From assembly GCF_055900595.2 (NCBI RefSeq), contig NZ_CM148325.1: DNA of 64,000 nucleotides, one strand, 5' to 3'. Below are positions 2,815-54,751 of the stretch, in pieces (position 1 is the stretch's first letter; every line of letters starts with the position of its first letter). A model generated the notes under the pieces. The model was not told the DNA's origin, ran no database searches, and worked only from the letters and a program-made list of their open reading frames with translations. Made by a program: the position numbers and the translations under genes.

Positions 2815-3429
2815 TTATCCTTCGATAAAAGCCATCCCTGTAAACGTCCGTCGCGGGTTGCCACGTTCAATCTGGTGATGGAACATTCGCCGCTGCGATT
2901 TCAGCGCCGCGCTATTTTCCTGTTGCTGTTGCTCCAGCTTCCAGGCAATCAGCAATCGCGCCAGCCGTTTGTTGGCATGTTGGCTGCGCTCTGACTGAAC
3001 CTTCACGCTAATCCCGGATGCCAGATGCGTGGCGCGTACCGCCGAGTCGGTTTTATTGACATGTTGACCGCCCGGCCCCGACGAACGCAGCGTCTCATAA
3101 TGGATCGCATCGGATTGCTCCTGCTCATCTGCAGTAAAACGCCCAATGCCCAGAAACCAGTTTTTGCGCCCATGATGAGGGCGATACGGACTCGGACAAA
3201 TCCACTGGATAGTGCCACACCAGCTTTCGCTTAGTGCCCATGCGTTGTCGCCATCAAGTGAAACCAGCGCCGAACGCAGTGTGTCAGAGTAGCGACCCGT
3301 TTCTGTTTCCAGCACCGTTACCGCGACGTCTTGTCGGGCAGCTTCTTTAATCAGCCTGTCCAGTGCCTTTTTCACTGCGAGACAACATTCTTCCGGCCCC
3401 TGAGCTGAGGAGAGTTGTAGCAAGATCAT
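2815..3429 (-). CDS. prfH: Peptide chain release factor homolog PrfH (full-length form)
   Basis: ORF contains a release-factor domain with the GGQ motif ([16 protein letters not shown]); likely start at the internal Met ([14 protein letters not shown]...) giving ~204 aa; start overlaps the rtcB stop. Confidence 0.85.
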
Positions 3430-4565
3430 CCTTTTTTCCCTCCACTGTTTTTGAGCGTCAGCACCGGACGCAGTCGCGCGACAGGAATAATTAAACCGGC
3501 CTGCACCAGACATTGCACCACACTTTCAGCCGATTTATAGGCTTGTGGCGCTTCTTCAAAGATGAGTTGTTTATCGCGACAAATTACCCGACTGCCAAGT
3601 TCAGTACGTGAGAGTTGCGTCGCCGTGTATTTCGCTGCCAGACGCCCTTTACACTCGGTGCGCCCCCATTTACGCCCTGCCCCATGCGCCAGTGAGTGAA
3701 GCGTTTTTTCGTTCGCAACAGGTTTAACCAGCCAGGAGTAATCACCGCGTGAACCGGGAATAATCACCAGACCGTTGTCATCCGGCGTAGCCCCTTTACG
3801 GTGTAACCATCCTTGTTGATCGCCGATTCGACATGCGCTAACAAAGTTATGCGCCACATCCAGAACCGAATTTCCGTTGGCCTTAACTTGTTGCATTATG
3901 CGCAAAGCGATCAGCTGGCGATTAATACGCGCAAACGCCAGCGCATCATCATGTTCCGCAATATAACTTAGCGCGTCGTCACTGCCTTCCGGCAAACCAT
4001 GATGCGAAAACGAGGCAATATGCCGCTGTAAAATAGACTGCCCTAAACCACGCGAGCCGCTATGGACCAGCAGTTGCAGATGCTGCGCATCCAGACCTGA
4101 CAGTGCAAACAGTTCCGCGTCGATGATTTGATCAATCTGTTGCAGTTCTGCAAAGTGGTTACCGCCACCGATAGAGCCAAGCGCGCAGCGCCACGGATGC
4201 TGTGCAAACGCTGACGGCAGGTTTTCCTCCAGCCAGCTTTCTTCAGCAACGTCATCCAGCGCAGATAATCGCTTTTCAAACTTATCGGCGTTGTATTTAC
4301 GCGCGAGAATATCTGTTTGCCATAGCGCCATACCGCAGCCGATATCATTGCCGACCAGTGCCGGGTAAAAACGGCCTACGGAGAAGAACGCTGCGCCAAT
4401 CGGATAGCCGCGTCCGGGGTGCAAATCTGGCATCCCCACTACGCGCTGCATGTTGGGTAAATTTGCCGTGGTGTGTAATTGTTGGATCGCTGAACTCTCG
4501 ATCCACAGGTCATCAGATGCGATGGTAAATACCGCATCGGATAAGGGACGAATATATTTGCCCAT
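3426..4565 (-). CDS. rtcB: RtcB-family RNA ligase (RtcB2-type, paired with prfH)
   Basis: 379-aa [26 protein letters not shown]...[17 protein letters not shown]... recognised as RtcB family; translationally coupled to prfH. Confidence 0.85.
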
Positions 4566-4810: not shown

Positions 4811-5263
4811 TTAATGTTGCGGTTTATATCGCATATGAAAATTAGTAAACCACGCTCCCCGGCATTCAACGCGTTGCTGCTTAACTGTCTGAAAACCATA
4901 ACGTTCAAAAAAGGGTTTTGCGGTTATGCTGGCGTCCACCGTAAGTTCGGATTCAGACTTAATCAAAGGTTTTAACAAAGCGCTGGCAACCCCACGGCGA
5001 GTATATTCAGGGTCAACAAATAACATATCGATATAATGTTCAATGCGGGAAATAAAACCAACCGGTTGTGCATTAATCACAGCAACTCGCACTTGTGATT
5101 TCGCGAGTTGCTCTTTCCAGCGAGATTCGTCAATCTGCGCCCAGGCGGCAATTTGTTGTGGTGAATAATGCTGACTGGCGGTCATCGTAACCGCTCTAAT
5201 GAAAATAGCGCATAGTTGCTGAAAATCGCAAGGCTGATAGTTTCTTATTTGTATGTTATTCAT
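4811..5263 (-). CDS. yafP: GNAT family N-acetyltransferase YafP
   Basis: 150-aa ORF recognised as YafP; start overlaps dinB stop (operon). Confidence 0.9.
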
Positions 5264-6315
5264 AATCCCAGCACCAGTTGTCTTTCCATTTGCGGATCCA
5301 GCAACGTCACATGCAGCCCCACCAGCCGCACACCGCGCCCGCCACGGCGTTCATCCCAGGTTTTACGCGCAGTGGCGATCAAGTCAGCTTTATTCAGCCG
5401 CGGCCAGACGTGTTCCTGGGTGGTTTGCTGAAAATCGTCGAACTTTAATTTCACCCCCTGGCGGGCAATCAGTAAATCAGGTTTTACCTTTGCCAGACGA
5501 CGTTCAAGTTCCGGGTACAACCGCTCGATGATCGCTTCACATTCAGACCAGTGATGAATATCTTCCGCCATGGTGCGTTCTACACCGACGGATTTTCGCA
5601 ACCTTTCGCTGTTAACGTCGCGCTCGTCAATGCCCTGGCTACGCTCCCACAAAATGCGGCCAAATTTGCCAAAGCGTTTAAGCAACGTCACCAGATCACA
5701 CTTTTGTACATCGCCACAGGTTCGTAGCCCCATCGCTTCCAGTTTTGCCGCCGAGACTTTGCCGACACCGGGAATTTTTGCCAGCGGTAAGGTTTGCAGA
5801 AATGCCGGAACTTCTGCCGGCGTAATCACAAACTGACCGTTGGGTTTATTCATGTCTGAGGCGATTTTGGCGAGAAACTTGACCGGCGCAACGCCCGCAG
5901 ACGCCGTCAGTTGCAGCTCGTTGAAGATCGTCTGGCGGATTTCCTGAGCGATAAGGGTCGCAGAGCCGTGGCAATGGACACTATCGGTGACGTCGAGATA
6001 GGCTTCATCCAGTGACAGCGGCTCAATACGCGATGTGTAGCGAGAGAAGATTTCGCGGATATGATTTGACGCTTCTTTGTAGGCGTCAAAGCGCCCTGGA
6101 AGCAAGGTGAGATGCGGACACAGTTTGAGCGCCATGCCGGTTGGCATTGCGCTACGCACGCCAAATTTACGCGCGGGATAATTGGCGGTGCTGATCACCC
6201 CCCGGCGTTCGCGGCTGCCGCCAATAGCAATAGGGATATCGCGCAGGGCGGGATTGTCGCGCATCTCCACCGCGGCGAAAAAGCAGTCCATATCCACATG
6301 AATGATTTTACGCAT
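5260..6315 (-). CDS. dinB: DNA polymerase IV (Y-family translesion polymerase)
   Basis: 351-aa [36 protein letters not shown]... recognised as DinB. Confidence 0.95.
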
Positions 6316-6385
6316 TGCTCACCTCTCAATACTGGTAAAGTATACAGTGATTTCAGAGTTTGAGAAAAGCGTAAAGATTCAGCAT

Positions 6386-7120
6386 TTAACGCGTTCGCTG
6401 CGAAAGCACCTGCTGCTTATCCAGCTTTTTCACCAGCGGCTGCACCACCTTATCCCCATGCTGACCAAAATATTGATACAACGTATCGGACGCGCTTTTG
6501 GTGAGCACCATAATCTCAATGCGCCGGTTACCCGCGCTTTGTGGGTTTTTGGCATCCAGCAGCATCTGGTCCGCCATCGCGCTTACCTGCATCACTTTAT
6601 CTTCCGGCATCCCGGCGTCTTCCAGCACCCGACGGGCCGAGAGCGCGCGGTCACCCGAAAGGTTCCAGTTGTTGTAGATATTGCTTTTATAGGCCATCGC
6701 ATCGGTATGCCCGGTAATAATAATTTTGTTGTCGAGCGAGTCGAATACCGGCGCGAGTTCCACCAGCAGCGTTTTAAAGAACGGCATAATCTTCGCGCTG
6801 CCGCGTTCAAACATATTGCGGTTCTGGTCATCTTTAATCAGCACGCGTAATCCCTGCGGGACAATCTCCATCTCCAGATTGGCTTCCATATGCGCATCGC
6901 GGGCGATGGTGTTGATACTGGTCGCCAGCTCGCCAAGCTCAGTGGCAGACTTCTTCTTCACTAGCGCCGTTTTCTCGTTGACGTCGCGGGCTTTTTTCTC
7001 CGTCTCTTCCGGCACCGCCACGGTGGCAGGTTTCGGCGGATGCGTCGGGCTGATTTTATTTAACGGCGACAGCCCGCCGCCATTGAAAATCGACTGCCCG
7101 TGCAGCGCGGCGATAATGCT
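6386..7120 (-). pseudogene. lafU: MotB-like lateral flagellar motor protein LafU, 5'-truncated remnant
   Basis: ORF has a MotB/OmpA-like C-terminal peptidoglycan-binding region but lacks the N-terminal transmembrane segment; the ORF-track N-terminus is antisense read-through into lfhA'; boundary approximate. Confidence 0.7.
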
Positions 7121-7139
7121 TTCACGCTCAGATTTACTA

Positions 7140-8855
7140 ACACTGTTGACAATCAACTTTATTGTCGTCACCAAAGGGGCCGAGCGTATTTCCGAGGTTT
7201 CTGCCCGTTTTACCCTGGACGCGATGCCCGGCAAGCAGATGGCGATTGACGCCGATCTTAACGCCGGGTTGATCAACCAGGCGCAGGCGCAGACCCGCCG
7301 CAAAGATGTTGCCAGCGAGGCCGATTTCTACGGCGCGATGGACGGGGCATCGAAGTTTGTGCGCGGGGATGCCATCGCCGGGATGATGATTCTGGCGATC
7401 AACCTGATTGGCGGCGTTTGTATCGGGATCTTCAAATACAACCTGAGCGCCGATGCCGCCTTCCAGCAGTATGTGCTGATGACCATCGGTGACGGCCTGG
7501 TGGCGCAGATCCCTTCCCTGCTGCTCTCCACCGCGGCGGCGATTATCGTCACCCGCGTCAGCGACAACGGCGATATCGCCCATGATGTGCGCCACCAGCT
7601 GCTGGCAAGCCCGTCGGTGCTCTACACCGCCACCGGGATTATGTTCGTGCTGGCGGTGGTGCCGGGAATGCCGCACTTCCCGTTCCTGATGTTCAGCGCC
7701 TTGCTTGGCTTTACCGGCTGGCGAATGAGCAAACGCCCGCAGGCGGCGGAGGCGGAAGAGAAAAGCCTCGAAACGCTGACCCGCACAATCACTGAAACCA
7801 GCGAGCAACAGGTCAGTTGGGAAACCATTCCGCTGATCGAGCCCATCAGTTTAAGCCTCGGTTACAAACTGGTGGCGCTGGTGGATAAAGCGCAGGGCAA
7901 CCCGCTCACCCAGCGTATTCGCGGCGTGCGGCAGGTGATTTCCGACGGCAACGGCGTGCTGCTGCCGGAGATCCGCATTCGCGAAAACTTCCGCCTCAAG
8001 CCCAGTCAGTACGCCATTTTCATCAACGGCATTAAGGCCGATGAAGCGGATATTCCGGCGGATAAGCTGATGGCTCTGCCCTCCAGTGAAACCTACGGTG
8101 AGATTGACGGCGTGCTGGGGAACGACCCGGCGTACGGGATGCCGGTGACCTGGATCCAGCCTGCGCAGAAAGCGAAGGCGCTGAATATGGGGTATCAGGT
8201 GATCGACAGCGCCAGCGTAATTGCCACGCATGTGAATAAGATTGTGCGCAGCTATATTCCTGATTTGTTTAACTATGACGATATTACTCAGCTGCATAAC
8301 CGTTTGTCGTCGATGGCACCGCGCCTGGCGGAGGATTTGAGTGCGGCGCTGAATTACAGCCAGTTGCTGAAAGTGTACCGGGCACTGCTGACCGAAGGCG
8401 TTTCCCTGCGCGATATCGTCACCATCGCCACCGTGCTGGTCGCCAGTAGCACCGTCACCAAAGATCATATTCTGCTGGCGGCCGATGTGCGCCTGGCACT
8501 GCGGCGCAGCATTACCCATCCGTTCGTTCGCAAGCAGGAGCTGGCGGTGTATACGCTGAATAATGAACTGGAAAATCTGCTGACCAACGTGGTGAATCAG
8601 GCGCAACAGGGCGGCAAAGTGATGCTTGATAGCGTGCCAGTGGACCCGAATATGCTCAACCAGTTCCAGAGTACGATGCCGCAGGTAAAAGAGCAGATGA
8701 AAGCGGCGGGGAAAGACCCGGTGCTGCTGGTGCCGCCGCAGCTGCGCCCGTTGCTGGCGCGTTATGCGAAGTTGTTTGCGCCGGGGTTGCATGTGCTGTC
8801 GTATAACGAAGTGCCGGATGAGCTGGAGTTGAAGATAATGGGGGCGTTGATGTAG
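7140..8855 (+). pseudogene. lfhA: FlhA-like lateral flagellar export protein LfhA, N-terminally truncated remnant
   Basis: FlhA homology begins mid-protein at NFIVVTKGAERISEVSARFTLDAMPGKQMAIDADLNAG (about nt 7146); upstream part of the 709-aa ORF is not FlhA-like; boundary approximate. Confidence 0.75.
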
Positions 8856-8856
8856 G

Positions 8857-10990
<2,134 letters not shown>

Positions 10991-11099
10991 AAGGGATGAA
11001 ACAACAGCGCCTGACGGCGCTGTGTCTGGCATGCCTGCAATCCGGGAGACTGGACCAGGAAAAAACTTGCAGGCCGTAACAGTATCTACTGTTAAAGCA

Positions 11100-11247
<148 letters not shown>

Positions 11248-11745
11248 TTATAAAATGATACGCTCTCCGGCACTAAAATCCGTTACGTCCCCCGCCCAAT
11301 CGATGGGATATAACCCTTTCGCGACATCACGATGGAACGTTGAGAATGGCCAATCACTTACCTGCTTTACCCAGCCATGTTTTACTGGATTTATATAAAT
11401 ATAATCAACATGATGGCGATAATCTTTGGTGTTGCGGATGGCATGCTCCCAAAAACGCGGTTGCCAGATATTTTTCAATCCGCAAACATGGGTGAATTGC
11501 TTTTTAATCTCCCGCCAGCGCGAGGAAAAATCATCATCGCTTTCGGGTAATGTCCAGATACAGTGCATATGCTCCGGCAAAACGACCCAGGCGTTAATTT
11601 CAAAAGGCCTGTCTCGCTTAACGTTAATAATGGCGTTACGGAGCATCTGTAACTGAGCGGTCAAAAGTTGGCTTCGACGATTCCGTAAATTTACCGTGAA
11701 AAACCATGTTCCCCCCTTTATATAAAAACGACGATATTCAGACAT
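11248..11745 (-). CDS. rayT: REP-associated tyrosine transposase RayT (TnpA-REP, HUH Y1 family)
   Basis: 165-aa ORF MSEYRRFYIKGGTWFFTVNLRNRR... recognised as RayT/YafM; flanked on both sides by REP arrays. Confidence 0.9.
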   Translation of the reverse strand: MSEYRRFYIKGGTWFFTVNLRNRRSQLLTAQLQMLRNAIINVKRDRPFEINAWVVLPEHMHCIWTLPESDDDFSSRWREIKKQFTHVCGLKNIWQPRFWEHAIRNTKDYRHHVDYIYINPVKHGWVKQVSDWPFSTFHRDVAKGLYPIDWAGDVTDFSAGERIIL

Positions 11746-11809
11746 AGCGACTCCTTTTTCTCAACGGTAAGAAGAAAAGGAAAAGTCGACAATGCGGGTG
11801 TGTTATATC

Positions 11810-11921
11810 GGGAAAGCGGCTCGCAAAATATTCGCAGACTCGTAGGCATGATAAGACGCGCCAGCGTCGCATCAGGCATCGGCGCATAACCGCCGGATGC
11901 GGCGTACACGCCTTATCCGCC
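11810..11921. repeat. REP/BIME array
   Basis: gtaggcatgataagacgcgccagcgtcgcatcaggcatcggcgcat...gccggatgcggcgtacacgccttatcc. Confidence 0.75.
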
Positions 11922-12680
11922 CTACAAAATCGTCTCTTCTGTCAAAATCCTGCGCGCGCCCAAAAAGTGATCCTGCCAGAAAGGTTCAGCTAACCGACTT
12001 ACCCGAATGGTTTCCCCGGTGCGCGGCGACTCGATAAACTGACCGTCTCCCAGATACACGCCCATATGGTCGGCAATCTCGCGGCTGTGAATATGGAAAA
12101 ACAGCAAATCTCCCCGGCGCAGGTCGTTATTTGCCACAATGGTTGCCCGACGGTAGTGATACATCTCATTGGCCGTGCGCGGGAGTTTCGCCTCGAGGAT
12201 CTTGTTGTAGGCATAAAAAACCAACCCGCTACAGTCGAAGCCTTGATCGGGTCGCGTGCCACCCCAGACGTATGGCTTGCCAAGCTGCTGCTCCAGACGG
12301 TGAATCGCCACTTCGGTGATATTATGCAGGTGGTTACTGCTGAGGAAATGATTGTTTTCCGCCAGCGCCTGCCAGCGTCTGTCACTCGCCTTGAGCGGCG
12401 CAGGAAACCATTCTGGATGCTGTTTTATCTGTTCGCGGTTGTGTTGCCGCAGTGCCCTTCTGCTTTCAGCATTGCCTTCCACAATATAGCTGGCCTGCTT
12501 TTTCAGATGAATTTGGTACTGTTTTAATAAACGCGCACGGTTTTGCATCCGCTGGCGGGCGGCGTAGCTGAAAGAGATATGTGATGTGGTGGCGCTGGCG
12601 AGTAAAGGGAGCAAAACGCATAACGAAAACACGCCTGGATGCAGAAATCTGCCGAGCAAGAACGAAGACATGAAGGACAT
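11922..12680 (-). CDS. yafL: NlpC/P60-family lipoprotein peptidase YafL
   Basis: 252-aa ORF with signal peptide and NlpC/P60-type motif (GFDCSGLVFYAY). Confidence 0.85.
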   Translation of the reverse strand: MSFMSSFLLGRFLHPGVFSLCVLLPLLASATTSHISFSYAARQRMQNRARLLKQYQIHLKKQASYIVEGNAESRRALRQHNREQIKQHPEWFPAPLKASDRRWQALAENNHFLSSNHLHNITEVAIHRLEQQLGKPYVWGGTRPDQGFDCSGLVFYAYNKILEAKLPRTANEMYHYRRATIVANNDLRRGDLLFFHIHSREIADHMGVYLGDGQFIESPRTGETIRVSRLAEPFWQDHFLGARRILTEETIL

Positions 12681-12971
12681 AAACCGGCTGAATGAAGGTG
12701 AGAATTTTAAAAGACCGGAGGAGTAAACGGGATTATTAATTGCTTATTTGCATATTACTATTGAGGTTTCATAATCTTAGGAAATAAATGATACATGCGC
12801 TTTTCGGACTAATGAAAACTGCCCTTGTGCTAAATTTGTAAACCCTGCGCCGACAGGCTTGCGTAAAACTCTTTTGGTGATAATGTGAGCCTTCCAAATC
12901 CAGACTATTCCGATTTGGGATCCATTTTGCCGTCCTGGCGTGTGTAACCGTTTTATCAAGGAATAAGCAGT

Positions 12972-13712
12972 ATGCGTAAAATCGCATTAATTCTTGCGAT
13001 GTTGTTGATCCCGTGCGTTTCGTTTGCCGGTTTGCTGGGCAGCAGTAGCTCGACCACGCCAGTGAGCAAAGAGTATAAGCAGCAGTTGATGGGATCCCCT
13101 GTCTACATCCAGATCTTCAAGGAAGAACGTACGCTCGATCTCTACGTCAAAATGGGCGAGCAATATCAACTGCTCGACAGCTATAAAATCTGTAAATATT
13201 CCGGCGGCTTAGGGCCAAAACAGCGTCAGGGCGATTTCAAAAGCCCGGAAGGGTTTTATAGCGTCCAGCGTAATCAGTTAAAACCAGACAGCCGTTACTA
13301 CAAAGCGATTAATATTGGATTCCCCAATGCCTATGACCGTGCGCATGGTTATGAAGGGAAATACCTGATGATCCACGGCGATTGTGTTTCCATCGGCTGC
13401 TACGCGATGACCAATCAAGGTATTGATGAGATCTTCCAGTTCGTTACCGGCGCGCTGGTGTTTGGTCAGCCGAGTGTGCAGGTAAGTATTTATCCGTTCC
13501 GCATGACCGACGCCAACATGCAGCGCCATAAATATTCCAACTTTAAGGACTTCTGGGAGCAACTGAAGCCGGGCTACGACTACTTTGAACAGACCCGTAA
13601 GCCACCGACCGTTTCTGTGGTCAATGGCCGTTACGTCGTCAGCAAACCGTTGAGCCATGAAGTGGTGCAGCCACAGCTGGCATCAAACTACACGCTCCCC
13701 GAGGCAAAATAA
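12972..13712 (+). CDS. yafK: L,D-transpeptidase family periplasmic protein YafK
   Basis: 246-aa ORF with signal peptide and YkuD-type catalytic region ([12 protein letters not shown]). Confidence 0.85.
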
Positions 13713-14465
13713 GCGCCATTCGCCTGGCATAATCTTTTGCCAGGTTTCATTGCCCGTCAGCGGCTGTGTCGCAATCACCGTGACCACATCATTCGGTGTG
13801 GTCTGCGAGCTGAAGTCGATTTCCACATCCTGATCCAGCAACGTTGCCACGCCAAACGGCGCGCGGCGGGTGATCCAGTGCAGATTGGTCGAGCAATACG
13901 CCATTACATAGCGTCCGTCCGAAAGTAGCATGTTGAAAACGCCCTTCTGCCGCAGTTCATCCGCCAGTGAGGCGATATATTTAAACACTGCCGCCATGTT
14001 GCCCGGTGTGCGCGGGTAACGCTGCGTTAATTTATTCAGGAGCCAGCAGAAGGCTTTTTCGCTGTCGGTTTCGCCTACCGGGCGGAAGTTGCCAGTTTCC
14101 AGTGATTTGTAGCCCGTCAGTTGTCCGTTATGGGCATAAGTCCAGTTACGCCCCCATAACTCGCGGGTAAACGGATGAGTATTTTCCAGTGCCACCTCGC
14201 CCCGATTCGCCTGGCGAATATGAGCAATTACCGAGCAGGATTTGATTGGATAGTCCTGGACCAGTTTGGCGATAGGGGAATTAAAGCTGGGTTGCGGATC
14301 TTTAAATGTGCGACAGCCTTTACCTTCGTAAAAGGTAATGCCCCAGCCATCTTTATGTGGCCCGGTTCCACCACCACGCTGCACCAGACCGGTGAAACTA
14401 AAGCAGATATCGGTAGGGACGTTAGCGCTCATCCCGAGCAATTCGCACATGGGTAACCTCCACAA
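13683..14465 (-). CDS. yafJ: Class II glutamine amidotransferase-like protein YafJ
   Basis: ORF begins ...[19 protein letters not shown]..., the Cys-at-N-terminus GATase-2 signature; true start probably the internal MCELLG Met. Confidence 0.85.
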
Positions 14466-14499
14466 CAGCGAGGGCGCATGGCCCCCGGCGAAGATTGAT

Positions 14500-14650
14500 T
14501 TAAGAATTTTCAGGTCGGATGCGGCGTGAACGCATTATTCGGCCTACGGTTCGGGTACAGATTTGTAGGCATGATAAGACGCATCAGCGTCGCATCAGGC
14601 ATCAGCGCACAAGTGCCGGATGCGGCGTAAACGCCTTATCCAGCCTACGC
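14500..14650. repeat. REP/BIME array
   Basis: Repeated gtcggatgcggcg...cgccttatcc / gtaggcatgataagacgc units. Confidence 0.75.
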
Positions 14651-14655
14651 CAGAC

Positions 14656-15234
14656 TTACTTAACCATCTCTTTTTCAATTAACTGGATCAGGATATGGAT
14701 CACTTTAATGTGAATCTCCTGAATGCGGTCGGCATAACCAAAGTGTGGAACGCGAATTTCGATATCCGCCGTGCCAGCCATTTTGCCGCCGTCTTTACCG
14801 GTCAGGGTGATCACTTTCATCCCCTTCTCACGCGCCGCTGCGATCGCTTTGATCACGTTCGCAGAGTTACCGGAAGTGGAGATCCCCAGCAGTACATCGC
14901 CTTCGCGACCTACCGCTTCAACGTAACGGGAGAAAATATCGTTGAAACCAAAATCGTTACCGACGCAGGAAATATGACTAACGTCAGAAATGGCAATCGC
15001 CGGATAGCCCGGACGGTTTTCACGGTAGCGCCCCGTCAACTCTTCGGCAAAGTGCATGGCGTCGCAATGGGAACCGCCGTTGCCGCAGGAAAGCACTTTG
15101 CCACCGGCTTTAAAGCTGTCTGCTAACAGGACCGCCGCGCGCTGAATGGCGTGAATATTGGCGTCATCTTTTAAAAAGTTAGCCAGCGTTTCCGCCGCTT
15201 CGTTCAGTTCGTTACGAATAAGATCCTGGTACAT
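14656..15234 (-). CDS. gmhA: D-sedoheptulose-7-phosphate isomerase (phosphoheptose isomerase)
   Basis: SIS-domain protein; start set at internal Met [20 protein letters not shown]... (192 aa) instead of the longer ORF. Confidence 0.9.
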
Positions 15235-15473
15235 GAGGATATCCTTCAGCATAAATGTAATAGACAAAATGCAGTGTACCGGATACCGCCAAAAGCGAGA
15301 AGTACGGGCAGGTGCGATGACCAGGACTTTTTGACCTGAAGTGCGGATAAAAACAGCAACAATGTGAGCTTTGTTGTAATTATATTGTAAACACATTGCT
15401 AAATATTTTTACATCCACTACAACCATATCATCACAAGTGGTCAGACCTCCTACAAGTAAGGGGCTTTTCGTT

Positions 15474-17918
15474 ATGATGATTTTGAGTATTCTCGCTACG
15501 GTTGTCCTGCTCGGCGCGTTGTTCTATCACCGCGTGAGCTTATTTATCAGCAGTCTGATTTTGCTCGCCTGGACAGCCGCCCTCGGCGTCGCTGGTCTGT
15601 GGTCGGCGTGGGTACTGGTGCCTCTGGCCATTATCCTCGTACCGTTTAACTTTGCGCCTATGCGTAAGTCGATGATTTCTGCGCCGGTATTTCGTGGATT
15701 CCGTAAGGTGATGCCACCGATGTCACGCACTGAAAAAGAAGCGATTGATGCAGGCACTACCTGGTGGGAAGGCGACTTGTTCCAGGGTAAGCCGGACTGG
15801 AAAAAGCTGCATAACTATCCGCAGCCGCGCCTGACCGCAGAAGAGCAAGCGTTTCTCGACGGCCCGGTAGAAGAAGCCTGCCGGATGGCGAATGATTTCC
15901 AGATTACTCATGAGCTGGCGGATCTGCCGCCGGAGTTGTGGGCGTACCTTAAAGAGCATCGTTTCTTCGCGATGATTATCAAAAAAGAGTACGGCGGGCT
16001 GGAGTTCTCGGCTTATGCCCAGTCTCGTGTGCTGCAAAAACTCTCCGGCGTGAGCGGGATCCTGGCGATTACCGTCGGCGTGCCGAACTCATTAGGCCCG
16101 GGCGAGCTGCTGCAACATTACGGCACTGATGAGCAGAAAGATCACTATCTGCCGCGTCTGGCGCGTGGTCAGGAAATCCCTTGCTTTGCACTGACCAGCC
16201 CGGAAGCGGGTTCCGATGCGGGCGCTATCCCGGATACCGGGATTGTCTGCATGGGCGAGTGGCAGGGCCAGCAGGTGCTGGGGATGCGACTGACCTGGAA
16301 CAAACGCTACATTACGCTCGCGCCAATTGCGACCGTGCTTGGGCTGGCGTTTAAACTTTCCGACCCGGAAAAACTGCTGGGTGGCGCAGAAGATTTAGGC
16401 ATTACCTGTGCACTTATCCCGACCACCACGCCAGGCGTGGAAATTGGTCGTCGCCACTTCCCGCTGAACGTACCGTTCCAGAACGGACCGACGCGAGGTA
16501 AAGATGTCTTCGTACCGATCGACTACATTATCGGCGGACCAAAAATGGCCGGGCAAGGCTGGCGGATGCTGGTGGAGTGTCTCTCCGTGGGCCGCGGCAT
16601 CACCCTACCTTCCAACTCAACCGGCGGCGTGAAATCGGTAGCACTGGCAACGGGCGCGTATGCGCACATTCGCCGTCAGTTCAAAATCTCTATCGGTAAG
16701 ATGGAAGGGATTGAAGAGCCGCTGGCGCGTATTGCCGGTAATGCCTACGTGATGGATGCTGCGGCATCGCTGATTACCTACGGAATTATGCTCGGTGAAA
16801 AACCTGCCGTGCTGTCGGCTATCGTTAAGTATCATTGTACCCACCGTGGGCAGCAGTCGATTATTGATGCGATGGATATCACCGGGGGTAAAGGCATTAT
16901 GCTCGGTCAGAGCAACTTCCTGGCACGAGCTTACCAGGGCGCACCGATTGCCATCACCGTTGAAGGGGCCAACATTCTGACCCGCAGCATGATGATCTTC
17001 GGTCAGGGAGCGATTCGTTGCCATCCGTACGTGCTGGAAGAGATGGAAGCGGCGAAGAACAATGACGTTAACGCGTTCGATAAACTGCTGTTCAAACATA
17101 TTGGCCACGTCGGCAGTAACAAAGTTCGCAGCTTCTGGCTGGGCCTGACGCGCGGTTTAACCAGCAGCACACCAACCGGCGATGCCACTAAACGTTATTA
17201 TCAGCACCTGAACCGCCTGAGTGCCAACCTCGCCCTGCTTTCTGATGTCTCGATGGCTGTGCTGGGCGGCAGCCTGAAACGTCGTGAGCGTATCTCGGCA
17301 CGTCTGGGGGATATTTTAAGCCAGCTTTACCTCGCCTCTGCCGTTCTGAAGCGTTATGACGACGAAGGCCGTAATGAAGCCGATCTGCCGCTGGTGCACT
17401 GGGGCGTACAGGATGCGCTGTATCAGGCTGAACAGGCGATGGATGATTTACTGCAAAACTTCCCGAACCGCGTGGTTGCCGGGCTGCTGAATGTGGTGAT
17501 CTTCCCGACCGGACGTCATTATCTGGCACCGTCTGACAAGCTGGATCATAAGGTGGCGAAGATTTTACAAGTGCCGAACGCCACCCGTTCACGTATTGGT
17601 CGCGGTCAGTACCTGACCCCGAGCGAGCATAACCCGGTTGGTTTACTGGAAGAGGCGCTGGTGGATGTGATTGCCGCCGACCCAATTCATCAGCGGATCT
17701 GTAAAGAGCTGGGTAAAAACCTGCCGTTTACCCGTCTGGATGAACTGGCGCATAACGCGCTGGCGAAGGGGCTGATTGATAAAGATGAAGCCGCTATTCT
17801 TGTGAAAGCTGAAGAGAGTCGTCTGCGCAGTATTAACGTTGATGACTTTGATCCGGAAGAGCTGGCGACGAAGCCGGTAAAGTTGCCGGAGAAAGTGCGG
17901 AAAGTTGAAGCCGCATAA
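15474..17918 (+). CDS. fadE: Acyl-CoA dehydrogenase FadE
   Basis: Start set at [21 protein letters not shown]... within the 840-aa ORF (814 aa); acyl-CoA dehydrogenase domains. Confidence 0.9.
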
Positions 17919-20653: not shown

Positions 20654-21268
20654 TCATATATCCGTAAGTGATTTAAAATCAGCAACACGGGCAAATTCCT
20701 TTTTCGGTAGTACCAAAGACTCTAGTCGTGCTGATAGCAGTTCAACCATAAACTCTGCCCACCCTAAGTCAAATTCATCACAAAGAGGTCCACGACTTTC
20801 ATTTATAACTATTTTCCAATTACAATTTTTTTCTAATTTCCAGAATAAAACCTCTCCACTATCAGTTATACCAAACGGGAGAACACCATCTTCCGATGGA
20901 AAAAAATTGTATGGGAATTTTTCGCCATGAAGTTTGACCTCAGCAAGAGCCGAATTTATTTCCTTTGCTTGCTCGATTAAATTAATATATGGATTATCAA
21001 CAAACGGGCTAAAGATCCAAAGGAACCCATTTATTCGTCCTATCCCATATTCATCAATAAAGGATTTATAATCTTCTGGCAACAAAATACCTAGCCTAGA
21101 CTCTGCTTTCCGCCAGTCATTGACGCCATTATAATCGTCAATAAGGTTTTTATAATCATTAGACAATTGAATACCGAGTTCAGATTCTAACCGTCCCCAA
21201 TAAGTAGTTATTTTCTCATTAATAACTGCTGGTGGCGGAATTATTTTCTTTATCATATCAATAGACAT
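20654..21268 (-). CDS. SMI1/KNR4 (SUKH-type) family protein, candidate Rhs immunity protein
   Basis: 204-aa ORF with features remembered for SMI1/KNR4 immunity proteins; located downstream of the Rhs C-terminal toxin. Confidence 0.6.
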   Translation of the reverse strand: MSIDMIKKIIPPPAVINEKITTYWGRLESELGIQLSNDYKNLIDDYNGVNDWRKAESRLGILLPEDYKSFIDEYGIGRINGFLWIFSPFVDNPYINLIEQAKEINSALAEVKLHGEKFPYNFFPSEDGVLPFGITDSGEVLFWKLEKNCNWKIVINESRGPLCDEFDLGWAEFMVELLSARLESLVLPKKEFARVADFKSLTDI

Positions 21269-50609: not shown

Positions 50610-52493
50610 ATGGATCCACGGCTACTGGAATACTACAACCGCGAACTGAGCTATCTGCGGGAAACGGGAGCCGAATTTGCCGCCCGTCATCCTAAAGTCG
50701 CCGCCAGACTGGGTATGCAGGGAACGGATATTGCCGATCCGTATGTGGAGCGTATGGTCGAAGCCTTTAGCTTCCTGACCGCCCGCACGCAGCTAAAAAT
50801 TGACGCTGAATTCCCCCGTTTCACCCAGCGCCTGCTGGAAGTAGTCAGCCCCAATTACGTCACCCCCACGCCCTCAATGAGCGTGGCGCAGCTCCATCCC
50901 GACCCGGAAGAAGGCGATCTGGCGAAGGGATTTACCGTCCCGCGCGACACGGCCTTTTTTTCCGCCATTCCGGAAGGCGAAAGTACCGCCTGTCAGTTTC
51001 GCAGCAGCCAGGATGTAACGCTGTGGCCGCTCGCCATCGAAGAGGTGCGACTGACCGCCGCACCGCCGGATATGCCTGCCCTGCACCGCTCTCTGCCAGC
51101 CAACATTCACGTCGCTGGTGCGCTGCGTATTACCCTGCGCACCTTTGGTGAACTGACATTCAGTCAGCTTGCAGGGCTGGACAGGCTTCCGTTTTATCTC
51201 TGTGGCGAGGAGCGCACGGCCTCACACCTGTTCGAACTGCTACATACCAGCGCCATCGCGACCCTGGCTGGCATTCCGGGGCATTTTGACGGTGCGCTGG
51301 ATGTGAATCTGCAACATCCCGTTATGTACGAAGGCCTGGAGCTGGATCAGGGGCTGCTGCCGCTGGCGTGGAACGTGTTTCACGGTCATAACCTGCTGCA
51401 TGAATATTTTGCCTGTCCAGAACGCTTTTATTTTTTCACCCCGACAGGCCTGTCTGCCGGGTTACAGAAAATTGACGGTGGCGTGGCGGAGATTGTTATC
51501 CTGCTGAACCGCCTGCCGCCGGACTGGCTGATCCACCAGACAAACGCGGCACAGTTCAGCCTGTTCTGTACCCCGATTATCAACCTGTTTCCCCGCGTCA
51601 CCGCACGGATCGATGTCACGCACAGCACGACGGAACAGCATCTGGTGGTAGACAGAACCCATCCACTGGATTATGAGGTGTTCTCGGTCCAGGAAGTGGA
51701 AGGGCTGGAAACCGACACCACACGGAAGATGGCCTTTCGCCCGCTCTACCACACCCGCAATAATGATGAAGGCAATCACGGACGTTATTTTTCCCTGCGC
51801 CGGGAGCCCCGCCGCTTATCAGAAAACGCCCGCCGTTACGGCACCCGTACCCCCTATACGGGCTCGGAAGTGTTCCTGTCGCTGGTTGACCAATATGAAG
51901 CGCCGTACCCAGAAAATCTGCGCCACATCACCATCACGGCCATGGTCACTAACCGCGATCTGCCCTGTCTTATTGCACGTAATGGCCGGGACGATCTAAC
52001 CGTGGATGCGGCAATCCCAGTGGCGGGCGTAGGGCTTATCCGCCCGCCGCGCTCGCCGCAGCCCCCGCTGGCTGAACGTGAGATGGCCTGGCGTTTGATC
52101 CGCCAGTTATCCTTTAATTATCTGCCGCTGGCCGATCTGGATCACCGTACCGGCGGCCAGGCGCTGCGCGATCTGCTTAACCTGTTTATTCCGGCGCATG
52201 ACAGCCCACAGTCGCGCCAGGTACGCAGTCTGATTGGCTGCAACACCACCCCGGTCACCCGCCGTCTGCCCGGTACCGGGCTGCTGGTCTATGGACGCGG
52301 CGTCAGTTGTGAACTGACGGTGGATGAGGAAGGGTTCTCCGGTATCAGTCCGTATCTGTTCGGCCTGGTGCTGGAGCACTATATCGCCCGTCATGTTTCC
52401 ATTAATACCTTCTCGCAGATGACGCTGCACAGCATGCAGCGCGGCAAAATTATGACCTGGCCTGTCAGGGCGGGACAGCGGGGAAGCGTATGA
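50610..52493 (+). CDS. tssF: T6SS baseplate protein TssF
   Basis: 627-aa ORF recognised as TssF. Confidence 0.9.
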   Translation: MDPRLLEYYNRELSYLRETGAEFAARHPKVAARLGMQGTDIADPYVERMVEAFSFLTARTQLKIDAEFPRFTQRLLEVVSPNYVTPTPSMSVAQLHPDPEEGDLAKGFTVPRDTAFFSAIPEGESTACQFRSSQDVTLWPLAIEEVRLTAAPPDMPALHRSLPANIHVAGALRITLRTFGELTFSQLAGLDRLPFYLCGEERTASHLFELLHTSAIATLAGIPGHFDGALDVNLQHPVMYEGLELDQGLLPLAWNVFHGHNLLHEYFACPERFYFFTPTGLSAGLQKIDGGVAEIVILLNRLPPDWLIHQTNAAQFSLFCTPIINLFPRVTARIDVTHSTTEQHLVVDRTHPLDYEVFSVQEVEGLETDTTRKMAFRPLYHTRNNDEGNHGRYFSLRREPRRLSENARRYGTRTPYTGSEVFLSLVDQYEAPYPENLRHITITAMVTNRDLPCLIARNGRDDLTVDAAIPVAGVGLIRPPRSPQPPLAEREMAWRLIRQLSFNYLPLADLDHRTGGQALRDLLNLFIPAHDSPQSRQVRSLIGCNTTPVTRRLPGTGLLVYGRGVSCELTVDEEGFSGISPYLFGLVLEHYIARHVSINTFSQMTLHSMQRGKIMTWPVRAGQRGSV

Positions 52494-54674: not shown

Positions 54675-54751
54675 TGGCGGAACGGACGGGACTCGAACCC
54701 GCGACCCCCTGCGTGACAGGCAGGTATTCTAACCGACTGAACTACCGCTCC
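54675..54751 (-). tRNA. aspV: tRNA-Asp (GUC)
   Basis: Exact reverse complement of the E. coli tRNA-Asp sequence as remembered; downstream of dnaQ; T6SS island abuts its 3' end. Confidence 0.95.

What the first reader, a model, noticed from the sequence alone, without database searches (positions are those of the whole stretch)
12681..12971. dinJ-yafQ toxin-antitoxin locus absent between yafL and yafK
K-12 carries dinJ-yafQ between yafK and yafL; here only ~290 bp of non-coding sequence separates them. With the missing yafNO, this strain lacks both TA modules of this region while carrying T6SS and Rhs cargo instead.
Basis: partly seen in the sequence, partly recalled or inferred. Interest (0 to 1): 0.45.

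Follow-up and report, generated by a model that had tools for sequence, protein, structure and literature searches.

The report
Ancestral TA-free yafL–dpaA spacer
This E. coli strain does lack the dinJ-yafQ toxin-antitoxin genes that K-12 carries between yafL and yafK, but this is the original, never-occupied state of the site, shared by about 38% of complete E. coli genomes and by related species, and it is already described in the literature.

Summary
yafL (11922-12671, minus strand) and yafK/dpaA (12972-13712, plus strand) are separated by 300 bp (291 bp from the longest ORF). No DinJ, YafQ, YafN or YafO coding capacity was found in the spacer or anywhere in the 64-kb window.

The absence is not a loss. 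The spacer is collinear, base for base, with the yafL-yafK spacers of E. albertii, two cryptic Escherichia lineages and phylogroup B2. Citrobacter and Phytobacter also have yafL next to yafK with no toxin-antitoxin (TA) genes. K-12 therefore holds the derived state.

The difference from K-12 is a replacement, not a clean indel. An 838-bp K-12 segment stands in place of 232 bp of the window (12600-12831). That segment carries dinJ-yafQ, their LexA-box promoter and a different version of the first 24 yafL codons.

Among 5,426 complete E. coli genomes, 3,340 carry dinJ-yafQ and 2,084 carry the empty allele. The two counts are almost perfectly complementary.

Published work already scores dinJ-yafQ as an acquisition of phylogroups E/B1/A and F, and describes dinB-yafP without yafNO.

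The T6SS and Rhs genes are real. They sit at the aspV tRNA, 7-42 kb away, so they are not there "instead" of the TA genes.

This is an ordinary, known polymorphism of low interest.

The parts
11922..12671 (-). yafL (C40/NlpC-P60 peptidase), 249 aa from the PGAP start; the longest ORF runs to 12680
   Evidence: ORF list. The identical allele is annotated in NZ_CP098223.1. It is 90% aa identical to K-12 YafL.
12600..12671 (-). First 24 codons of yafL (signal peptide MSSFLLGRFLHPGVFSLCVLLPLL, ending just before the shared ASATTSH). This is the ancestral type and has no detectable DNA homology to the K-12 version (MSLPSIPSFVLSGLLLICLPFSSF).
   Evidence: Pairwise alignment with K-12 and translations. 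The window type is shared with E. albertii, L006, L007 and B2, and resembles Citrobacter. The K-12 type was seen only in the TA-bearing alleles examined.
12600..12831 (.). 232-bp allele-specific segment, replaced in K-12 by 838 bp (L002 2947-3784) that hold the alternative yafL 5' end, the 209-bp yafL-dinJ spacer, dinJ, yafQ and 15 bp downstream
   Evidence: The segment is present once in 2,084 of 5,426 complete E. coli genomes.
12734..12788 (.). Block nearly invariant across Escherichia (E. coli to E. albertii). It contains a sigma-70-like site on the + strand, TTTGCA-17-CATAAT at 12747-12775. It is presumed to be divergent promoter/operator DNA for yafL and/or an upstream dpaA promoter.
   Evidence: Alignments and promoter scan, 9 of 12 matches. 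Function is inferred, not shown.
12788..12789 (.). Site of an 11-bp deletion specific to the window's sub-allele, relative to B2 (ATCC 25922), E. albertii and Escherichia sp. E1V33. It creates a non-conserved 17-codon ORF (12789-12842).
   Evidence: Four-way alignment and six-frame translation.
12832..12971 (+). 140-bp dpaA promoter and leader block. It is identical in K-12 and conserved across Enterobacteriaceae genera: TGTAAAC, CTTGCG(A/T)AAAA (-35-like), GGTG(A/C)TAATGTGAG (-10-like), a hairpin at about 12893-12921, invariant TGCCGTCCTGGC, and the Shine-Dalgarno AAGGA.
   Evidence: 81-sequence alignment. The K-12 breakpoint sits exactly at its upstream edge. ldtF (= yafK) has its own RpoS-dependent promoter according to PMC6428754.
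12972..13712 (+). dpaA (yafK/ldtF), the amidase that detaches Braun lipoprotein from peptidoglycan
   Evidence: ORF list, annotation, function from the papers listed.
4811..6315 (-). dinB-yafP with a 4-nt overlap and no yafN-yafO between them
   Evidence: The same arrangement is described for UTI89 in PMC7167474.
19969..54751 (.). T6SS island with a PAAR-Rhs effector, ending at tRNA-Asp (aspV, 54675-54751). It is context only and not part of the spacer.
   Evidence: NCBIfam hits to TssM, VgrG, TssH and TssC, and to YD-repeat/RHS core/PAAR. tRNA scan.

Best explanation
The 300-bp yafL-dpaA spacer is the ancestral, never-occupied form of a chromosomal site into which the dinJ-yafQ module was later introduced in other E. 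coli lineages. It works as an ordinary divergent regulatory region.

The dpaA-proximal 140 bp carry dpaA's own conserved promoter and leader. This promoter is known to be RpoS-dependent in K-12. The distal part carries the yafL 5' region and an Escherichia-conserved block that probably holds the yafL promoter and perhaps a second dpaA promoter. That last point is inferred.

In K-12-type strains, an 838-bp segment replaced 232 bp of this spacer. The segment holds dinJ-yafQ, their LexA-box promoter and an alternative yafL start with its signal peptide. It was most likely brought in by recombination from another lineage that already carried the module at this site, and it spread between Escherichia lineages by homologous recombination in the flanks (inferred).
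For: 1. There is no TA coding capacity or remnant in the spacer or the window.

2. The window spacer, including the yafL 5' end, aligns without rearrangement to E. albertii NBRC 107761 (L008), Escherichia sp. E1V33 (L007), 'E. coli' SCPM-O-B-8794 (L006) and B2 strain ATCC 25922.

3. Nine Citrobacter loci and Phytobacter massiliensis have yafL directly upstream of yafK with no DinJ or YafQ.

4. Among the 80 species-level loci, only Escherichia sp. MOD1-EC7003 (L009) carries the module. Its TA genes are 98-99% identical to K-12 while its yafL is 89% identical, which fits transfer.

5. The population counts are complementary: dinJ-yafQ in 3,340 genomes and the empty segment in 2,084, out of 5,426, with a median of one copy each.

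6. The K-12 breakpoints are at yafL codon 24/25 and exactly at the upstream edge of the conserved dpaA promoter block.

7. PMC6896753 scores yafQ-dinJ as present in all EB1A genomes and only phylogroup F of the FGB2 lineage, and lists it among independent acquisitions. PMC7167474 and PMC5120126 treat E. coli chromosomal TA modules as horizontally acquired inserts.

8. YafQ-family toxins occur on 1,185 plasmid records across many genera.
Against: Direction of change rests on parsimony over a few outgroup genomes, not on a formal ancestral-state reconstruction.

E. fergusonii and the GTDB E. coli representative were not among the loci returned.

The donor of the K-12-type segment was not found. 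The K-12-type YafL N-terminus was seen only in Escherichia.

yafL itself is mosaic: the mature part is 91.9% identical between the window and K-12. Recombination has therefore blurred the history.

Only the 64-kb window was available. Absence of dinJ-yafQ elsewhere in the source genome is inferred from the complementary counts, not observed.
Confidence: 0.88

Rival explanations
1. Secondary loss: the window's lineage once carried dinJ-yafQ at this site and deleted it, leaving a 300-bp scar.
For: TA modules are known to decay and be lost in E. coli; PMC7167474 cites work on the decay of ccdO157. A minority allele, BS-01 (L005), lacks the TA yet has a 12-nt K-12-like insertion in the yafL 5' end, so some secondary or mosaic events do occur at this site.
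Against: The window spacer is collinear with outgroup spacers over its full length, including the ancestral-type yafL signal peptide. A deletion from the K-12 allele could not regenerate those 232 bp. No dinJ or yafQ fragment was detected by any method.
Confidence: 0.05
2. The ancestral spacer is itself the eroded remnant of a much older RelE/YafQ-type module.
For: There is a short resemblance at the right junction. The window reads CATGCG-CTTTTCGGACTAA and the K-12 yafQ 3' end reads CACGCGGCGCTCTTTGGGTAA. One frame of the window reads IHALFG, against the YafQ C-terminus HAALFG.
Against: The resemblance covers about 20 nt and is not significant: phmmer scores were negative and nhmmer found no hit. 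The reading frame is not conserved in E. albertii or B2, where 11 extra bp and substitutions break it. Citrobacter lacks the motif. It is as likely to be chance, or microhomology used at the junction.
Confidence: 0.03
3. The spacer encodes an unannotated small product (a small protein or sRNA) that occupies the place of the TA module.
For: A sigma-70-like site at 12747-12775 is followed by AGGAAA and a 17-codon hydrophobic ORF at 12789-12842. A 55-bp block at 12734-12788 is nearly invariant across Escherichia.
Against: The ORF exists only because of an 11-bp deletion specific to this sub-allele and is absent in B2, E. albertii and E1V33. There is no Rfam match in the interval at E <= 1. The ORFs of 46-72 aa match no NCBIfam or PADLOC family. 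The conserved block is adequately explained as promoter/operator DNA.
Confidence: 0.04

Closest known systems
dinJ-yafQ locus of E. coli K-12 (b0226-b0225), a type II TA module: RelB/DinJ antitoxin plus the ribosome-dependent mRNA interferase YafQ
   Same: Same chromosomal site. The flanking genes yafL and dpaA/yafK are the same, and the 140-bp dpaA promoter block is identical.
   Different: The window has no dinJ, no yafQ, no LexA-box promoter and no K-12-type yafL 5' end. 232 bp stand in place of 838 bp.
TA-poor configuration of phylogroups B2, D and G (for example UTI89, ST131, ST95, ATCC 25922), as described by Fiedoruk et al. 2015 (cited in PMC7167474), Fraikin et al. 2020 (PMC7167474) and Gonzalez-Alba et al. 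2019 (PMC6896753)
   Same: The same empty yafL-dpaA spacer and the same dinB-yafP operon without yafNO.
   Different: The window's sub-allele differs from the B2 sub-allele by an 11-bp deletion and about 8% substitutions within the 233-bp query (12600-12832). 823 genomes are at 95-100% identity to the window and 1,231 at 90-95%.
yafL-yafK spacers of E. albertii, cryptic Escherichia lineages and Citrobacter
   Same: Same gene order with no TA. Within Escherichia the spacers are collinear at roughly 85-90% identity. The dpaA promoter block is conserved across genera.
   Different: Citrobacter spacers are about 70 bp longer and alignable only in the dpaA-proximal block and in the yafL coding part.

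Membership tests
DinJ-YafQ type II toxin-antitoxin module | An ORF encoding a RelB/DinJ-family antitoxin (about 86 aa) | tested here: not met
   tblastn with K-12 DinJ: best E = 0.11 in the window, and nothing in 12600-12971. phmmer on six frames gave negative scores. The interval ORFs have no NCBIfam or PADLOC match.
DinJ-YafQ type II toxin-antitoxin module | An adjacent ORF encoding a YafQ (RelE-fold) toxin (about 92 aa) | tested here: not met
   tblastn with K-12 YafQ: best E = 0.29, elsewhere in the window. phmmer and nhmmer were negative on the interval.
DinJ-YafQ type II toxin-antitoxin module | A promoter with a LexA box (CTG-N10-CAG) upstream of dinJ | tested here: not met
   No CTG-N10-CAG in 12600-12980. 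The dinB LexA box at 6332 was found as a positive control.
Degraded TA locus (deletion scar or pseudogene) | Residual dinJ or yafQ sequence, or K-12-type flanks, at the junction | tested here: not met
   blastn with word size 7 matched only the shared flank. nhmmer found nothing. The yafL 5' end is of the ancestral type, not the K-12 type.
Ancestral unoccupied integration site | The spacer is collinear with that of outgroup species lacking the insert | tested here: met
   Alignments with E. albertii, L006, L007 and B2. Citrobacter and Phytobacter have yafL-yafK adjacent with no TA.
Ancestral unoccupied integration site | The occupied and empty alleles are mutually exclusive and together account for the species | tested here: met
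   3,340 genomes with dinJ-yafQ plus 2,084 with the empty segment make 5,424 of 5,426, with a median of one copy. 2,082 genomes have the contiguous spacer.
Ancestral unoccupied integration site | The distribution on the species tree is compatible with gain rather than loss | not tested
   No tree was built here. PMC6896753 reports presence in all EB1A genomes and in phylogroup F only, and scores it as acquisition.

The most novel reading that the evidence does not exclude
The polymorphism is more than two genes present or absent. The TA-bearing allele is an 838-bp foreign segment that also swapped the yafL promoter and the 24-codon YafL signal peptide, and placed an SOS/DinJ-controlled promoter upstream of dpaA. 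TA-free strains such as this one keep the ancestral regulation and export signal of two peptidoglycan-remodelling enzymes, YafL and DpaA. These may therefore be expressed or exported differently in D/G/B2 strains than in A/B1/E strains. If so, phenotypes of dinJ-yafQ deletions in K-12 could partly reflect effects on these neighbouring genes.
Probability: 0.2. Interest if true: 0.3.

Novelty: already known. Interest (0 to 1): 0.1.

Why it matters
It matters little as a discovery. Presence or absence of dinJ-yafQ and yafNO among E. coli phylogroups is published, and TA modules are accepted as accessory, horizontally acquired genes.

It has three practical uses.

1. K-12 is the derived state here, so "missing" genes in pathogenic or commensal lineages should not be read as losses or trade-offs.

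2. The allele boundary lies inside yafL and exactly at the edge of dpaA's own conserved promoter. This corrects the published assumption that yafK has no promoter and depends on the TA operon. It also warns that TA deletions or allele comparisons may touch YafL export and regulation.

3. The spacer type (K-12 type, B2 type, or window type with the 11-bp deletion) is a simple lineage marker.

Tried and rejected
1. I looked for a hidden or degraded TA in the spacer using tblastn, phmmer on stop-masked six-frame translations, nhmmer, low-stringency blastn, and NCBIfam and PADLOC on every ORF of 46 aa or more. All were negative.

2. An Rfam scan at E <= 1 over 10000-15500 found only isrC and REP-type naRNA4 hits outside the spacer.

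3. The resemblance between IHALFG in the window and the YafQ C-terminus is about 20 nt, not significant and not conserved. I rejected it as evidence of a remnant.

4. The 17-codon ORF downstream of a promoter-like site was rejected because it is created by a sub-allele-specific 11-bp deletion.

5. I searched for the donor of the K-12-type segment with YafL homologues. The K-12-type N-terminus occurs only in Escherichia proteins. One such protein (P0003, locus L086) again sits next to dinJ-yafQ. No other genus was identified as donor.

6. yafL body identities do not single out a donor lineage, because the gene is mosaic.

7. A structured-RNA reading of the conserved dpaA leader got no support. 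RNAalifold predicted only a 4-pair hairpin with no covariation.

8. No complete RefSeq genome matches the window beyond position 20868, so I could not identify the exact source genome or search it whole.

Full report
**What is in the sequence.** The window is E. coli chromosome, in the orientation opposite to the K-12 map: gpt, pepD, prfH/rtcB, yafP, dinB, lafU/lfhA remnants, IS elements, rayT, yafL, yafK (dpaA), yafJ, gmhA, fadE, and then a T6SS island. yafL lies on the minus strand at 11922-12671. That start is the one PGAP uses for the identical allele in NZ_CP098223.1; the longest ORF reaches 12680. dpaA/yafK lies on the plus strand at 12972-13712. In K-12 MG1655 the same two genes are 906 bp apart, with dinJ (261 bp) and yafQ (279 bp) between them.

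**Is anything of dinJ-yafQ left?** No.
- tblastn with K-12 DinJ, YafQ, YafN and YafO gave no hit better than E = 0.1 in the whole window and none in the interval.
- phmmer against the six reading frames of 12560-13010, with stops masked so that a decayed gene could still align, gave only negative bit scores. nhmmer found nothing. blastn with 7-nt words matched only the flank shared with K-12.
- The three ORFs of 46-72 aa in the interval match no NCBIfam or PADLOC family.
- Rfam has no match in the spacer at E <= 1.
- No LexA-box core is present, whereas the dinB box at 6332 is found.

**The difference from K-12 is a replacement, not a clean indel.** In the pairwise alignment, homology runs through yafL up to window 12599. 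That position is codon 24/25, the end of the signal peptide, just before the shared ASATTSH. Homology resumes at 12832, exactly 140 bp upstream of the dpaA start codon. Between these points the window has 232 bp and K-12 has 838 bp (L002 2947-3784). The K-12 segment holds an alternative set of the first 24 yafL codons (MSLPSIPSFVLSGLLLICLPFSSF against MSSFLLGRFLHPGVFSLCVLLPLL here). The two versions have the same length and the same hydrophobic architecture, but no detectable DNA homology. The segment also holds the 209-bp yafL-dinJ spacer with the LexA-box promoter, dinJ, yafQ and 15 bp more.

**Which state is ancestral?** I scanned one genome per GTDB species for YafK and obtained 80 loci.
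- Three of the four Escherichia loci have rayT-yafL-yafK with no TA: E. albertii NBRC 107761, Escherichia sp. E1V33, and a divergent 'E. coli' SCPM-O-B-8794.
- Nine Citrobacter loci and Phytobacter massiliensis also have yafL directly upstream of yafK with no DinJ or YafQ.
- The window spacer, including the yafL signal-peptide codons, aligns collinearly with the Escherichia outgroups and with B2 strain ATCC 25922.
- The Citrobacter YafL N-termini (…PGLLSLCVV…) resemble the window type.
- Only Escherichia sp. MOD1-EC7003 carries dinJ-yafQ. Its TA genes are 98-99% identical to K-12, while its yafL is only 89% identical. That pattern suggests transfer rather than common descent.

The TA-free spacer is therefore the ancestral state, and K-12 carries the derived insertion. 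A deletion from the K-12 allele could not recreate the 232 ancestral base pairs, so secondary loss is very unlikely for this window.

**Population picture.** Among 5,426 complete E. coli genomes:
- 2,082 have the contiguous TA-free arrangement.
- 2,084 carry the empty-allele segment (searched as window 12600-12832), once each.
- 3,340 carry dinJ-yafQ, with a median of one copy.

The counts add to 5,424, so the alleles are essentially mutually exclusive. Genomes with the empty site do not, as a rule, hold dinJ-yafQ elsewhere.

The empty allele has two main forms. The window's form is found at 95-100% identity in 823 genomes. A form at 90-95% identity, carrying 11 extra bp, is found in 1,231 genomes, including ST131, ST95 and ATCC 25922, that is, B2. 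The outgroups share the 11 bp, so the window's form has a small secondary deletion at about 12788. A rare third form (28 genomes at 60-80% identity, and strain BS-01 at 83%) is mosaic.

**What the literature says.**
- Gonzalez-Alba et al. 2019 (PMC6896753) report yafQ-dinJ in all genomes of the E/B1/A lineage and only in phylogroup F of the F/G/B2 lineage, and list it among independent acquisitions.
- Fraikin et al. 2020 (PMC7167474) stress that no type II TA is shared by MG1655, W, EDL933 and UTI89. They also state that where yafNO is absent, as in UTI89, dinB-yafP forms an undisturbed operon.
- Ramisetty et al. 2016 (PMC5120126) describe E. coli TA modules as horizontally transferred inserts and give the 209-bp and 155-bp spacers around dinJ-yafQ.

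YafQ-family toxins are common on plasmids, with 1,185 records across many genera. The finding is thus already known.

**How the spacer most likely works.** The dpaA-proximal 140 bp (12832-12971) are identical in K-12 and strongly conserved across Enterobacteriaceae genera. The conserved elements are TGTAAAC, a -35-like CTTGCG(A/T)AAAA, a -10-like GGTG(A/C)TAATGTGAG, a hairpin, an invariant TGCCGTCCTGGC, and the Shine-Dalgarno sequence. Morè et al. 2019 (PMC6428754) showed with lacZ fusions that ldtF (= yafK/dpaA) has its own promoter, which is RpoS-dependent and induced in stationary phase. The TA insertion stopped exactly at the edge of this block. dpaA therefore keeps its own promoter in both alleles, contrary to the "No promoter, likely cotranscribed" entry in PMC5120126.

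Upstream, a 55-bp block (12734-12788) is nearly invariant within Escherichia and contains a sigma-70-like site facing dpaA. I infer that it is promoter/operator DNA for yafL and/or a second dpaA promoter; this is not shown. In K-12 this block is gone, and the dinJ promoter takes its place.

- yafNO is absent. dinB (5260-6315) and yafP (4811-5263) overlap by ATGA, as in the nearest complete genome.
- A T6SS (TssM, VgrG, TssH/ClpV, TssC) and a 1,255-aa PAAR-Rhs protein are present.
- The island abuts tRNA-Asp at 54675-54751 and spans about 19969-54542, which is 7-42 kb from the spacer.
- The closest complete relatives share the TA-free spacer at 99.9% identity but lack the island, keeping only an ImpA fragment.

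The word "instead" is therefore not justified.

**What remains open.** The donor of the K-12-type segment was not identified. The K-12-type YafL N-terminus occurs only in Escherichia proteins. In one further genome (L086) it again lies next to dinJ-yafQ, with a yafL body only 90% identical to K-12. yafL is mosaic overall, at 91.9% identity between the window and K-12 in the mature part. The conserved dpaA leader shows no covariation support for a structured RNA.

**Verdict.** This is an ordinary, already described polymorphism in which the window holds the ancestral state.

Noticed in passing
window 12832-12971: The 140 bp upstream of dpaA/yafK are identical in K-12 and strongly conserved across Enterobacteriaceae genera. 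The conserved elements are TGTAAAC, CTTGCG(A/T)AAAA, GGTG(A/C)TAATGTGAG, a hairpin at about 12893-12921 and an invariant TGCCGTCCTGGC. There is no Rfam match, and RNAalifold found no covariation. This fits the RpoS-dependent ldtF promoter reported in PMC6428754 and contradicts the "no promoter" entry in PMC5120126. One Citrobacter amalonaticus locus (L020) has a 58-nt insertion in the hairpin loop.
   Followed up: partly
window 12600-12671; K-12 locus L002 3713-3784: The TA-bearing and TA-free alleles encode different 24-residue YafL signal peptides of equal length with no DNA homology. The K-12 type was found only next to dinJ-yafQ (K-12, L009, L086). I did not see this linkage mentioned in the papers I read.
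   Followed up: partly
L005 (E. coli BS-01, NZ_CP172816.1) 2500-2870: A third, rare spacer allele (BS-01 itself at 83% identity, plus 28 genomes at 60-80% identity to the window segment). It is TA-free but has a 12-nt K-12-like insertion in the yafL 5' end and a shortened right junction, so it looks like a recombinant or mosaic.
   Followed up: partly
window 12788-12842: An 11-bp deletion relative to B2 and the outgroups, between repeated AAATAA motifs, creates a non-conserved 17-codon hydrophobic ORF (MIHALFGLMKTALVLNL).
   Followed up: yes
window 11925-12599: The mature part of yafL is only 91.9% identical in DNA between the window and K-12. It is 88-91% identical among Escherichia lineages, with no clean tree-like pattern. 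yafL appears to be a mosaic, recombination-prone core gene.
   Followed up: partly
window 2815-4565: Full-length ORFs lie at the rtcB-like ligase and prfH position, where K-12 has the pseudogenes ykfJ and prfH. The nearest complete genome annotates both genes as intact.
   Followed up: no
window 6386-11245: This is a lateral-flagella (Flag-2) deletion scar: a lafU gene and an N-terminally truncated FlhA-like (lfhA) fragment. It is followed by an IS3-family element, IS110 and transposase fragments, and an Rfam isrC hit (10387-10509, 145 bits) that lies inside the IS3 region.
   Followed up: no
window 11110-11181, 11845-11922, 14568-14645: REP-type naRNA4 (RF02564) matches above the gathering score flank rayT and lie between yafJ and gmhA, as expected for the RayT/REP system.
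   Followed up: no
window 20868 onward (about 19969-54542): The closest complete genomes (99.9% identity over 1-20868) lack the T6SS/Rhs island and keep only an ImpA fragment beside aspV. No complete RefSeq genome matches the window across the junction. The island is therefore variable even among near-identical backgrounds.
   Followed up: partly
window 52276-52369: ARAGORN calls a 94-nt tRNA-His inside the T6SS gene cluster. It is over-long and lies within coding sequence, so it is probably a false positive.
   Followed up: no
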